IMG/VR virus record: IMGVR_UViG_2574179916_000005
Coordinates: 1 to 11,983 of that record
Source: a virus
Lineage: Duplodnaviria; Heunggongvirae; Uroviricota; Caudoviricetes
Length of the DNA: 11,983 bases
Reading direction: 5' to 3' (one strand)
Shown here: positions 6,001-9,000 of the stretch, piece after piece
Layout: each line of letters begins with the position of its first letter
Position numbering within the stretch: the first letter of the stretch is position 1
Made by a program: the position numbers

Positions 6001-9000
6001 ATAACGTCCCGCCTGTATGGCTGGGAGACAGCCAGCTTGACGAACTGGCAGACCTTAAAATCATCGACGATGGTCGCTATTGTGTCCGGCTGTACAAGGC
6101 AGGCCACATCAAGCCGTCAAATATTAATGCCATCGGGCAAAAGCTGGCGACGGCAGGTGTACGGGATGCGAATTATTACCCCGAGGGAATGCACAGCCAG
6201 AAGCGGGAGGAGTGGCGCGAATATCTGGAGCGTGAGCGCCAGAAAAAAATGTCCGGAGAGATACCGGAGGAAGAAAAAAACGAACAGCGAAAAACCACGC
6301 TACCAATGAGTATTGGATCTGCAGGGTACGACACACAGCTTGATTATGTCGTTAAGGGCGTGATTCCGGCTAATTCGTTGTGCAGCACATACGGCGCGAG
6401 CGGTTCCTATAAATCGTTCCTTGCGTGTTCCTGGGCGTGTCATGTTGCCACTGGTCGCCACTGGGGAGGCCGCAGGGTGGCGCATGGTTCGGTGATGTAT
6501 GTTGTCGGTGAAGGTGGCATTGGTGTCCCCCGTCGTATCAAGGCATGGGAAATCGTTAATGATGAACGGGTGAAAAATCTGTACCTGGTAAACCGCCCGA
6601 TTTTTCCGGCAGCCCCGCTTGATGTTGATGAAATGGTCATCGCTTCCCGCCAGGTTGAACGGGAAACGGGTAAACCGGTACGCATGATTATTCTGGATAC
6701 GCTGGCGCGTTGCTTTGGCGGTAATGATGAAAATGACGCGCGGGATATGGGGGCGTTTATCCGTGGATGTGACGAACTGAAACGCCGCACAGGGGTCACG
6801 GTGCTGGTGGTTCACCATTCCGGCAAGGATGAAACAAAGGGAGCGCGTGGTTCCAGTGCATTTCGTGCATCTCTGGACGCTGAATACCGTATTCGCCGGG
6901 AAGGTGCAGACAGCGAAGCTCTGGTTATCTCCTGCACCAAAATGAAGGACGCGGAGGAACTGAAAGAGGCTGCATATGATTTACGTGTGGTGGAGCTTTT
7001 TACCGACACTGACGGGGAGTTAATCACGTCGCTGGTGGTTGTGGATAAGCCGCGCCCGCCTGTTGAACTGGAACGCATCGAGGAAGCCGGGAACAAGACG
7101 GAGAATCATGCCGCGCTATGGGGATGTATCCGTTCACGCACACAGCGTGGCGATAAATGCACTATTCCGTTGTTGCGCGATGATATGAAAAAGCTGGGGT
7201 ATGAGATGAAACACTTCCGGCGCTGGCTGTACAAGCTGGAAGGTGATGGCGTTATTGCTATTGACGGTGATGACGTGCGCCCACTGTAAAAAGTGGGTAG
7301 TAAAAGTGGGGAGTGTGGGGAATTTAACAAAATTGAAACGTGATTCCCCACTTTCCCACCTGTATATACCCCAAAAAGTGGGGAGTAAAAAACACATTGA
7401 AAAACAGTACATTAGAGTCACAAAAAAAAGAAGTGGGGAGACGTTGGGTAATTTCAAAAAGTGGGGAACAAAAGTGGGGAGTGGTGAGGAATGACCAGAA
7501 AAACCAGAGATAAAACAGCGCCAAAATATCGCGCATTAGACATGACAGAGCACGCCTTAAAGGTGGCAATCAGAACAATAGACCGCCATGCCGGAGAAGG
7601 ATACGCGAAAACACATCCCGAACTGATAAGCGCATTCATGACAGCGGCGGCGGCAAACTTTGCCACGCTGACAGAGCTGGAGATAGCCGAAGCGGAACAG
7701 GTGACAACCATCAACGTTAAAACCGGAGAGCAGACAGCATGACAGCACAGATAGCGGCTTACGGGAGGCTGGCGACTGACCCGCAGTTAAAGACCACCAG
7801 CAAAGGGACACAAATGGCGATGGCGAGTATGGCGGTCCCACTGCCATGCAGTCAGGCAGATGACGGAACGGCGACGATGTGGTTATCCGTCCTGGCGTTT
7901 GGCAGACAGGCCGATGCGCTGGCCAGACACCACAAAGGCGAACTGGTGAGCGTGGCGGGTAACATGCAGGTAAGCCAGTGGACAGGCCAGAACGGGGAAA
8001 CGCGGCAGGGCTGGCAGGTTATCGCAGACAGTGTAATCAGTGCGCGAACGGCGCGACCGGGCGGCAAAAAAGGCCAGCAGGGCCAGGCTACTGACGCACT
8101 GAACAGGGCAAAACAACAGGCGGGGAATGATGATCCGTACGGGGATAACATACCGTTTTAAGCAACGAGTAACAGAAGCCGGAGTAATCCGGCTTTTTTA
8201 TGGGTCCTTCCGGTGTAGTGACCTGCCACGGGGCGGGAGCGTCGCGGGAAAAGGCTGGTTTTTGCATTTTCATGGCGGCGGCAGCATGTGTGATAATTTA
8301 TTGATAATTAAAAATTATTTCTGTTTTCACCTGTACAATATTTTTTTCTCCCTGTCATTAGACCAGTTTGCAATTAATTGAAATATATAAATAAATTTGT
8401 TTTTCACCTGCCAGATGGAGTTGCCTGTGTAAAACGTGTTCAGATGGCGGGATATTTATGCCGGATTCTCTCCGGCATTTTTTGTGTCTGAATCTTATTA
8501 ATCTATTTTTATGATAGAAATGTGTTTATCTACCACATTTATCGATCAATAATGTGCACAGTTTAGTCAGTAAGAGGAAGTTACTGTGAGTTGTATTAAT
8601 GACCTGAACACGGGCGATATCAGGGGTGGTTCCGTTCATCTGGATGCGCAGACCGTTATGCGCCTTAAGCAGTACAGGATCGACCATATAAATCATCATC
8701 CTGACAAACCATTACCAGGTGTGGCGCAGATTGTCAGACATGCCGTAAACACCTGGCTTAATCAGAATGGTTTTGCATCGGTGGGGGAATAATGAATCGC
8801 TGGTACACCATTAAGGCGGCGGATGTGCGTGGAGCGGCGGATATATCTATCTATGAGGAGATTGGCGGCTTCGGTGTTACTGCAAAGCAGTTCGCGGAAG
8901 ACCTGAAAGCCCTTGGCGATGTTTCACATATCAATCTGAGGATCCATTCACCTGGTGGTGATGTGTTTGAAGGCATCGCCATCTATAACCTGCTACGGAA

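What the first reader, a model, noticed from the sequence alone, without database searches (positions are those of the whole stretch)
8202..8290. cos copy 2 keeps the cosQ/cosN-like core but lacks the cosB-like TTCGTCATC box
Copies 1 and 3 continue after the core with ...CATTTCATTCGTCATCA..., which parallels the lambda cosB-proximal sequence. Copy 2 instead reads ...GCATTTTCATGGCGGCGGCAGC. It may therefore be recognised by a different TerS, or act only as a termination site rather than an initiation site.
Basis: seen in the sequence. Interest (0 to 1): 0.5.

Follow-up and report, generated by a model that had tools for sequence, protein, structure and literature searches.

The report
Satellite's second cos site, borrowed from another phage
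The second packaging (cos) site of this phage satellite is not missing its recognition half: it carries, almost unchanged, the complete cos site of a different lambdoid phage lineage (cdtI/Tritos type) without that phage's small-terminase gene, which probably lets the satellite be packaged by a second kind of helper phage.

Summary
Three cos copies share an ~80-nt core, and copy 2 diverges from copies 1 and 3 right after TTTTCAT (window 8273/8274).

Copy 2 does not lack cosB. Window 8231-8438 is 92-93% identical to the left end of phages cdtI and Tritos. Both records start at window base 8231, the predicted cohesive end GGGCGGGAGCGT. The match runs to the start codon of their small terminase (TerS), which is deleted here.

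That TerS is only 26% identical in its N-terminal part to the two TerS encoded in the window. The same cosB layout recurs in six genera, with fixed length, an IHF consensus at +64 and repeated CACCTG-type boxes.

The window holds a helper-embedded satellite (HE-PICI) inserted in terL of an mEp460-type prophage. The same satellite family also sits in cdtI-type prophages and at a chromosomal site, nearly always with both cos sites. A relative carries a terS-less cos of a third phage lineage in the same slot.

Best reading: cos2 is a second packaging site for cdtI-type helper terminase, while cos3 with the satellite's own TerS is its private module. This rests on comparison only. Two cos sites per PICI are already known (EcCICFT073), so novelty is modest.

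The parts
8177..8199 (+). Terminator-like hairpin (AGCCGG-AGTAAT-CCGGCT) plus T-run after ssb. It forms the left border of the cos2 cassette.
   Evidence: Read from the sequence. The same hairpin precedes cos2 in related satellites. The simple terminator scan did not list it.
8202..8208 (+). cosQ-like heptamer GGGTCCT of cos2.
   Evidence: Same word as in lambda (GGGTCCT), one base closer to the nick. Present in all three copies.
8231..8242 (+). Predicted 12-nt cohesive end GGGCGGGAGCGT of cos2. cosN spans about 8226-8247.
   Evidence: It aligns with the lambda cohesive end GGGCGGCGACCT. The records of phages cdtI and Tritos begin at exactly this base.
8243..8273 (+). I2-like spacer CGCGGGAAAAGGCTGGTTTTTGCATTTTCAT. 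It is the last part of the core shared by all three copies.
   Evidence: Conserved in both the mEp460-type and the cdtI-type cos families over several genera.
8274..8290 (+). First block of the cdtI-type cosB (GGCGGCGGCAGCATGTG), at the R3 position (+44 to +60). This replaces the TTCGTCATC box of copies 1 and 3.
   Evidence: Family consensus tGtCaGCAGCAgGT at +46 to +59 in 14 cos sites from 6 genera. Identical in phage-borne E. coli copies.
8294..8306 (-). IHF consensus (WATCARNNNNTTR, read on the minus strand; plus strand TAATTTATTGATA).
   Evidence: At exactly +64 to +76 in 12 of 14 cdtI-type cos sites, with variable N positions. There are only 6 matches in the whole window.
8324..8338 (+). 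cosB box TTTTCACCTGTACAA (+94).
   Evidence: The 10-mer TTTTCACCTG occurs twice in the window against 0.02 expected. Family position TT.AGGTGACAA.
8352..8366 (+). cosB box CTGTCATTAGACCAG (+122).
   Evidence: Family position TGTCAcCT; nearly identical in the Rahnella and Yersinia loci.
8401..8414 (+). cosB box TTTTCACCTGCCAG (+171).
   Evidence: Family consensus TTCACCTGACAG.
8427..8438 (+). Vestige of the terS start of the donor phage (ATG changed to GTG, followed by TAA). Homology to phage cos ends here.
   Evidence: Alignment with the LR-51 prophage and with phage cdtI.
8458..8478 (+). Terminator-like hairpin that replaces terS after the cos2 cassette.
   Evidence: An analogous hairpin follows the terS-less cos in the O121 satellite.
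59..281 (+). cos1 of the embedding helper prophage (mEp460 type). cosQ 67-73, cohesive end 96-107, R3-position box TTCGTCATCACCAC 138-151, IHF consensus 157-169.
282..776 (+). Helper TerS (DUF1441, phrog_141).
776..1771 (+). Helper terL, gpA ATPase half, interrupted by the satellite. attL core is about TTCTGGATG|TAGGG at 1760-1773.
1933..8161 (+). Satellite integration, Bro and replication zones: int, HTH/AlpA-like, Bro-N, DUF4222, RepA-type helicase, ssb.
8586..10705 (+). Satellite small ORF (phrog_4934) and ClpP-protease/major-capsid fusion gene.
10730..10962 (+). cos3 of the satellite. cosQ 10738-10744, cohesive end GGGCGGGAGCGG 10767-10778, R3-position box TTCGTCATCATCATC 10809-10823.
10963..11448 (+). 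Satellite TerS' (DUF1441, phrog_141), 64% identical to the helper TerS.

Best explanation
cos2 is a complete lambda-style cos site (cosQ, cosN, I2-like spacer, cosB). Its cosB is that of cdtI/Tritos-type lambdoid phages ('type B'). The satellite holds it as a cassette without the cognate terS, between ssb and its capsid operon.

**Proposed mechanism (inferred from the lambda paradigm)**
- In a cell where a type B phage is induced, that phage's TerS binds the boxes of cosB. IHF bends the DNA at +64.
- TerL is thereby positioned on cosN and nicks to give the 12-nt end GGGCGGGAGCGT.
- Satellite concatemers are then packaged rightwards, without any satellite factor.

**The other site**
- cos3 has a satellite-specific cosB derived from the mEp460 type ('type A') and is followed by the satellite's own TerS'. 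It is the private module, probably used with type A TerL.
- The two sites together would give the satellite two packaging specificities.

**In this window**
- The embedding helper is type A and no type B TerS is encoded in the window. cos2 should therefore not initiate packaging here.
- It can still be cut as a termination site, because it keeps cosQ, cosN and the spacer.

**Shown:** homology, architecture, distribution. **Inferred:** binding, cleavage, use in packaging.
For: 1. **Near-identity to phage cos.** Window 8231-8438 is 92-93% identical to the left ends of phages cdtI and Tritos. Their records start at window base 8231. It is about 91% identical to the cos-to-terS interval of an intact prophage in strain LR-51.
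2. **Clean loss of terS.** Homology stops about 10 nt after the phage terS ATG, and a terminator follows.
3. **Divergent cognate TerS.** The type B TerS shares 26% identity in the N-terminal part and 54% in the C-terminal part with the helper TerS. Its putative recognition helix differs: (N/H)R(G/D)TVKKRL against HRQTAAARL.
4. **Conserved family architecture.** Type B cos sites in Escherichia, Proteus, Providencia, Morganella, Yersinia, Xenorhabdus and Rahnella have a fixed distance from cosN to the ATG (+196/197). An IHF consensus lies at +64 in 12 of 14. Conserved boxes lie at +46, +96, +122, +173 and +185. cos2 keeps all of them.
5. **Few differences between satellite and phage copies.** They differ at about 10 of 185 positions, mostly outside the boxes.
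6. **Distribution.** The cosB stretch alone occurs in 890 of 5426 E. coli genomes: 146 satellite-type copies and 740 phage-type copies.
7. **Both helper types are used.** The same satellite family is embedded in terL of type A helpers (about 68 genomes) and of type B helpers (about 19 genomes, e.g. strains A5 and EC42405). It also occurs at a chromosomal site and as a 10,790-bp circle. Seven of nine complete elements surveyed carry cos-B plus cos-A.
8. **A third lineage in the same slot.** The O121 relative carries, in the same slot, a terS-less copy (~91%) of the cos of an O157:H7 prophage.
9. **cos3 is satellite-specific.** cos3/terS' has no phage counterpart above about 74% identity.
10. 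**Precedent.** EcCICFT073 has two functional cos sites with different cosB (PMC6092414, PMC6739421).
Against: - There is no experimental evidence for binding, cutting or packaging.
- The match between satellite cos type and embedding helper is not strict.
  - The window's helper is type A.
  - The O121 satellite sits in a type B helper but carries neither a type B cos nor terS'.
- One relative (strain A20) lacks cos2 altogether, so the site is dispensable.
- The 5% divergence from phage copies is also compatible with recent capture without selection.
- Co-occurrence of satellite cos2 with a type B prophage in the same genome is only suggestive. 23 of the 60 best satellite-type hits have a second copy, against a base rate of about 14%. 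Many of those genomes are clonal.
- In EcCICFT073, deleting the second cos raised transfer, so a second cos can be a cost.
- Homology of DUF1441 TerS to lambda Nu1 is not established (hhalign probability 16%).
Confidence: 0.62

Rival explanations
1. cos2 is a neutral relic. It would be a by-product of the frequent capture and reshuffling of helper late DNA in the satellite's late zone, not used for anything.
For: - PICI late zones are dynamic and capture helper late genes (PMC10111431).
- Strain A20's satellite lacks cos2.
- Only 5% divergence from phage copies, so capture could be recent.
- EcCICFT073 cos2 is dispensable.
Against: - The cassette is trimmed precisely to the functional cis element: from cosQ to the terS start codon, flanked by terminators.
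- It is kept in about 146-163 genomes, in satellites with different integrases, replicases and locations.
- A different phage's cos occupies the same slot in the O121 relative, trimmed in the same way.
- All family-conserved boxes and the IHF site are intact.
Confidence: 0.2
2. cos2 serves only as a termination (or length-setting) site for packaging that starts at cos3. The extra cos offers additional cut points (8.3 kb + n x 10.8 kb) when filling helper-sized or small capsids.
For: - cosQ, cosN and the I2-like spacer are what lambda needs for termination. They are exactly the part shared by all three copies.
- No cognate TerS is encoded in this window.
Against: - Termination does not need cosB, yet about 155 bp of cosB is retained intact.
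- A cut at cos2 after initiation at cos3 would yield an 8.3-kb molecule lacking the capsid operon.
- The overhangs of cos2 (…GCGT) and cos3 (…GCGG) differ at the last base in this element.
- Deleting the second cos raised transfer in EcCICFT073.
Confidence: 0.1
3. cos2 is recognised by a satellite factor: TerS' itself, a TerS'/helper-TerS heteromer, or another small satellite protein. This would be analogous to Rpp-TerS recognition of EcCICFT073 cos1.
For: - Precedent of Rpp (PMC6739421).
- Small conserved ORFs of unknown function flank the site (phrog_1231, phrog_4934, phrog_1561).
Against: - The cosB of cos2 is 92% identical to a genuine phage cosB. It is not a satellite-specific sequence, as the Rpp model would require.
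- TerS' has a type A-like N-terminal part and lies next to its own type A-like cosB.
- Neither TerS' nor orf95 hits the solved Rpp structures. No gene follows cos2 at the Rpp position.
Confidence: 0.05
4. The AT-rich stretch after the core is a promoter/operator of the capsid operon or part of the replication origin, not cosB.
For: It is AT-rich, contains a direct repeat, and lies downstream of the replication genes and upstream of the capsid operon.
Against: - It is homologous to the cos-terS interval of phages, where no such function is expected.
- No sigma-70-like site was found on the + strand.
- A terminator separates it from the capsid operon.
- Origin-like iterons lie elsewhere, at 7288-7500.
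Confidence: 0.03

Closest known systems
[quoted passage not shown] 2018, 2019; Murialdo and Feiss 2022)
   Same: - One satellite carries two cos sites that share helper-like cosQ and cosN but have different cosB.
- One site is the main, satellite-specific one and is followed by a satellite gene for a TerS-like protein.
- The other site is dispensable.
   Different: - In EcCICFT073 neither cosB resembles a phage cosB, and the specific factor is Rpp, which works as a heterodimer with helper TerS.
- Here the extra cos is a near copy of a real phage cos. The satellite gene after the other cos is a full-length DUF1441 TerS.
- No Rpp homolog was found.
Lambda versus phage 21 packaging specificity (cosB / Nu1 N-terminal domain); established knowledge from the Feiss laboratory, recalled from memory
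   Same: - Phages share cosQ, cosN and most of TerL.
- They differ in cosB and in the N-terminal DNA-binding part of TerS, giving distinct packaging specificities.
- The architecture is R3, IHF site, further R sites, then terS about 190 nt from the nick.
   Different: - TerS here belongs to DUF1441 / phrog_141, not demonstrably to the Nu1 family.
- The box sequences are unrelated to the lambda R sites.
- Both specificities are combined on one satellite.
Helper-embedded PICIs (Tommasini, Mageeney and Williams 2023)
   Same: - An int-alpA-Bro-replication-late satellite of about 10.8 kb.
- It is inserted co-oriented within a late gene of a lambdoid prophage and carries captured late genes.
   Different: - The site here lies in a gpA-type terL (codon ~327-331, att core about TTCTGGATG).
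- In the text and supplements held, gene A sites are named only for the Terminase_1 profile.
- cos content was not analysed in that paper beyond one shared 258-bp stretch.
cos-type SaPIs such as SaPIbov5 and SaPIbov4 (the latter with two putative cos sites)
   Same: The satellite carries a copy of the helper's cos so that helper terminase packages it, and it encodes a capsid-protein homolog.
   Different: - Gram-positive, HNH-dependent cos system, with no cosB/TerS specificity classes described.
- The resemblance rests on statements in PMC6092414.

Membership tests
Lambda-type cos site | cosQ element upstream of the nick site | tested here: met
   GGGTCCT lies at 8202-8208, 22 nt before the predicted nick (23 nt in lambda). 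Compared with the lambda record itself.
Lambda-type cos site | cosN giving 12-nt G+C-rich cohesive ends | tested here: met
   GGGCGGGAGCGT aligns with lambda GGGCGGCGACCT. Two phage records (cdtI, Tritos) begin at this base. Actual cleavage cannot be tested here.
Lambda-type cos site | cosB with repeated TerS sites and an IHF site between cosN and terS | tested here: met
   IHF consensus at +64 and repeated CACCTG-type boxes at family-conserved offsets. Protein binding cannot be tested here.
Lambda-type cos site | terS gene immediately downstream of cosB | tested here: not met
   For cos2 the terS gene is deleted after about 3 codons. The feature is met for cos1 and cos3.
PICI / helper-embedded PICI | Co-oriented int, alpA-like, replication genes and few late genes; 10-20 kb | tested here: met
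   About 10.8 kb between the att cores. A 10,790-bp circular form exists in a relative.
PICI / helper-embedded PICI | [quoted passage not shown] | tested here: met
   The terL halves flank the element in at least 87 genomes. Intact terL carries the att core. Excision itself was not tested.
PICI / helper-embedded PICI | Induction, packaging and transfer by a helper phage | not testable with these tools
   Requires experiments.
Rpp-type PICI packaging (EcCICFT073 cos1) | rpp gene about 100 bp downstream of the satellite cos | tested here: not met
   No gene follows cos2. TerS' and orf95 give no hit to the solved Rpp structures. TerS' is a full-length phrog_141 TerS.
Rpp-type PICI packaging (EcCICFT073 cos1) | Satellite cosB unlike any helper cosB | tested here: not met
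   The cosB of cos2 is 92-93% identical to phage cdtI/Tritos cosB.
Lambda Nu1-family TerS (for the proteins presumed to read cosB) | N-terminal winged helix-turn-helix homologous to Nu1 | tested here: inconclusive
   hhalign aligns DUF1441 residues 13-58 with Nu1 3-49, but at 16% probability. PDB profile hits are weak HTH matches. The single-sequence AlphaFold model had pLDDT 55.

The most novel reading that the evidence does not exclude
Satellites of this family keep a dedicated 'cos cassette slot' between ssb and the capsid operon. The slot holds a terS-less but otherwise complete cos site copied from a phage. The cassette is exchanged between lineages (cdtI type here, O157-prophage type in the O121 relative). 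The satellite can thus be packaged directly by whichever helper terminase is locally common, in addition to its private cos plus TerS' module. This would be a general answer to the published open question of why some PICIs carry two different cos sites.
Probability: 0.4. Interest if true: 0.55.

Novelty: new variant of a known kind. Interest (0 to 1): 0.4.

Why it matters
Which helper phages can mobilise a satellite decides how far the satellite and its cargo spread. If a satellite combines a private packaging module with an unmodified cos site of a second phage lineage, its helper range is set by a small swappable cis element. Helper range could then be read from sequence.

As a by-product, it gives a first map of cosB architecture for the common DUF1441-TerS lambdoid phages of enterobacteria: R3-position box, IHF site and repeated boxes, in two specificity families.

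Tried and rejected
- **Rpp-like factor.** Sequence searches of TerS' and orf95 against all PDB chains gave no Rpp or Nu1 hit. A DUF1441 profile gave only weak HTH hits.
- **Link to lambda Nu1.** hhalign aligned the N-terminal HTH and wing but at 16% probability. This was left as inconclusive.
- **Structure of TerS.** The single-sequence AlphaFold2 model had mean pLDDT 55 with an N-terminus below 50. It was unusable, so no fold search was run.
- **RNA families.** No Rfam match anywhere in the window.
- **Promoter reading of the AT-rich stretch.** No sigma-70-like site on the + strand of 7700-11000.
- **tRNA attachment site.** No tRNA gene in the window. The element turned out to sit in terL.
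Rejected as positional homology, because the offset differs and the word lies outside lambda R3.
- **Asakura et al. 2007 (phage cdtI).** The paper is not held. I therefore do not know whether the cdtI ends were determined experimentally.
- **One pattern search** used a wrong spacer length and found nothing. It is superseded.
- **Co-occurrence of satellite cos2 with type B prophages.** Only a rough count was possible. It is confounded by clonal genomes and is not used as strong evidence.
- **terL mosaic boundary at the att core.** The boundary between helper types does not lie exactly at the att core. It lies about 20-140 nt downstream.
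Full report
**1. What is in the window**

The window is a composite. A lambdoid prophage contributes three parts:
- cos1 (59-138 plus cosB up to 281);
- a DUF1441 small terminase, TerS (282-776);
- the gpA-type ATPase half of terL (776-1771).

terL is then interrupted by an element of about 10.8 kb. In order, that element encodes:
- a tyrosine integrase, an AlpA-like HTH protein, a Bro-N protein and DUF4222;
- a RepA-type helicase and SSB;
- cos2;
- a small ORF and a ClpP-protease/major-capsid fusion;
- cos3;
- a second DUF1441 TerS (TerS', 10963-11448) and a 95-aa ORF.

In E. coli B1-56 and A20 the same arrangement is followed by the nuclease half of terL, then portal, capsid and tail genes. 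This is a helper-embedded PICI in the sense of Tommasini et al. 2023 (PMC10111431).

**2. The observation**

The three cos copies share about 80 nt.

Against the lambda record itself, the shared core is recognisably cosQ (GGGTCCT), cosN and the spacer that follows. The 12-nt end is GGGCGGGAGCGT here and GGGCGGCGACCT in lambda.

After TTTTCAT, copies 1 and 3 read TTCGTCATCA... and remain homologous into terS. Copy 2 reads GGCGGCGGCAGCATGTG... and is unrelated to them.

**3. What follows the core in copy 2**

Searched against 5426 complete E. coli genomes, window 8202-8438 matches hundreds of loci at about 91%. In those loci the match is followed directly by a DUF1441 gene.

In strain LR-51 this is an intact lambdoid prophage: lysis genes, cos, TerS, full-length TerL, portal. 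Homology to the window runs up to about 10 nt beyond the phage terS ATG. In the window that codon is GTG followed by TAA, and a terminator-like hairpin comes next.

In the phage collection, the records of phage cdtI and phage Tritos begin at exactly the base corresponding to window 8231.
- They match 8231-8438 at 92-93% (185 of 200 positions ungapped for cdtI).
- The right end of cdtI reads ...GGGTCCTTCCGGTGGGGTGGCCTGCCACG.

cos2 is therefore a full copy of the cos site of this phage lineage, here called type B, minus terS.

**4. Two cosB families**

TerS homologs were collected from one genome per species and the upstream DNA was anchored on cosN.

*Type A* comprises cos1, cos3 and mEp460-like phages.
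- It has a TCATCAC/CATCATC-type box at +43 to +57.
- An inverted copy lies near +100 and a direct copy lies just before terS.
- The boxes co-vary between genera.

*Type B* comprises cos2, cdtI-like phages, and loci in Proteus, Providencia, Morganella, Yersinia, Xenorhabdus and Rahnella.
- The distance from cosN to the terS ATG is fixed at +196/197.
- A conserved block lies at +46 to +59.
- An IHF consensus lies at exactly +64 to +76 in 12 of 14 sites. There are only six such matches in the entire window.
- Further boxes lie at about +96, +122, +173 and +185.

cos2 retains every one of these. Its 10-mer TTTTCACCTG occurs twice, against 0.02 expected.

The TerS proteins differ accordingly.
- Type B against the helper TerS: 26% identity in the N-terminal part and 54% in the C-terminal part.
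- Their putative recognition helices differ.
- TerS' is 64% identical to the helper TerS throughout.

**5. Distribution**

- The cosB stretch of cos2 alone (8274-8440) occurs in 890 of 5426 genomes: 146 at 95-99% (satellite copies) and 740 at 90-95% (phage copies).
- A chimeric junction query (type B terL N-half joined to the satellite int) was found at 98% or more in about 19 genomes. About 68 further genomes have the type A junction.
- Strains A5 and EC42405 confirm a type B helper with this satellite inside its terL.
- The same late module also occurs in a conventional PICI between cspD and clpS and as a 10,790-bp circular record.
- Of nine complete elements examined, seven carry cos-B in front of the capsid operon and cos-A in front of terS', whatever the helper type. 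One lacks cos2.
- The ninth (O121) has two cos sites in the same two slots but of other types and no terS'. Its first slot holds a terS-less copy (~91%) of the cos of an O157:H7 prophage, again followed by a terminator.
- cos3/terS' has no phage counterpart above about 74% identity. It is a satellite-specific allele.

**6. Interpretation**

The conserved core is the part that, in lambda, interacts with TerL. It is sufficient for termination. The two helper types share a 97%-identical terL nuclease half and the same cosN.

The variable part is the TerS-specific cosB.

The simplest reading is that cos2 makes the satellite a direct substrate for type B helper terminase, while cos3 with TerS' is its own module. 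The C-terminal part of TerS' resembles the helper's type A TerS (64% identity against 38% to type B). This suggests it pairs with type A TerL (inference).

In the present window no type B TerS is encoded. cos2 would therefore be silent for initiation and at most a termination site.

All functional steps are inferred from the lambda paradigm and from the EcCICFT073 experiments (PMC6092414, PMC6739421, PMC9026076). None is shown here.

**7. Weak points**

- The satellite's cos types do not always match the embedding prophage (the window itself, and O121).
- cos2 is absent from one relative.
- Low divergence from phage copies is also compatible with recent, unselected capture.
- The co-occurrence count is confounded by clonality.

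**8. Novelty**

The following are already published:
- HE-PICIs;
- PICIs with two cos sites;
- cosB/TerS specificity classes.

No paper in the searchable library describes this second cos as a phage-type site of another lineage.

Not found in the literature searched:
- that the second cos of a PICI can be an essentially unmodified cos of a different phage lineage kept without terS;
- that the slot is swapped between lineages;
- the cosB maps for DUF1441-TerS phages.

I rate this a new variant of a known kind, of moderate interest.

Noticed in passing
window 1760-1773 (attL); L001 24505-24525 (attR); L003 10750-10765 (attB): The satellite is inserted in a gpA-type terL between the ATPase and nuclease halves (codon ~327-331, core about TTCTGGATG|(T/G)AGGG). 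In the HE-PICI paper's text and held supplements, gene A sites are named only for the Terminase_1 profile and the string 'GpA' does not occur. This may be an undescribed HE-PICI site, although one supplement file was cut when stored.
   Followed up: partly
window 7288-7500: Direct and inverted repeats of AAAGTGGGGA-type units (D7, I3) lie just after the RepA-type helicase gene. They look like the satellite's replication-origin iterons.
   Followed up: no
window 8242 vs 10778; L065 5979 and 9299: The twelfth base of the predicted cohesive end is polymorphic. It is T in cos1 and cos2 and G in cos3 of the window. It is G in both sites of the circular satellite record, and the pattern is reversed in EC42405. 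Ends made at different cos sites of one element would mismatch at one base.
   Followed up: partly
window 8209-8226 vs 10745-10762: The cosQ-cosN spacer of cos3 (CCGGTGTAGTGACCTGCC) is identical to that of cos2 in this element. It differs in the B1-56 and strain 1223 relatives (GGTGGGGTGGTC). This suggests gene conversion between the two sites of one satellite.
   Followed up: no
L065 (NZ_CP148328.1, whole record): A 10,790-bp circular 'plasmid' of strain Z1323HEC0475 is an excised copy of a satellite of this family, with int, primase, capsid fusion, both cos sites and terS'.
   Followed up: partly
window 776-1771 vs L003 9770-11869; L007-L009: terL of type A and type B helpers is mosaic. Identity is 55-85% at the nucleotide level up to about nt 1100 and 93-100% afterwards. 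The switch lies 20-140 nt downstream of the satellite att core and near the ATPase/nuclease domain border.
   Followed up: partly
window 8792-10705: The satellite's ClpP-protease/major-capsid fusion is only 57% identical to the helper's. This raises the question of whether it redirects capsid size, as the capsid homolog of SaPIbov5 does.
   Followed up: no
window 8586-8792 (+) vs 8526-8699 (-): RefSeq annotates a 57-aa ORF on the minus strand in relatives. The overlapping plus-strand 68-aa ORF matches phrog_4934 at E = 7e-34 and is annotated in EC42405. The plus-strand gene is probably the real one.
   Followed up: partly
window 11445-11732: A 95-aa ORF (phrog_1561, unknown function) always follows terS' in the satellites. 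In the O121 relative it remains even though terS' is absent.
   Followed up: no
L068 20235-20560 and 22783-23041: The O121 satellite has two cos sites with other cosN variants (GGGCGGAGGGG..., GGGCGGGCGG...) and no terS'. It is embedded in a decayed type B prophage whose capsid gene has an internal stop.
   Followed up: partly
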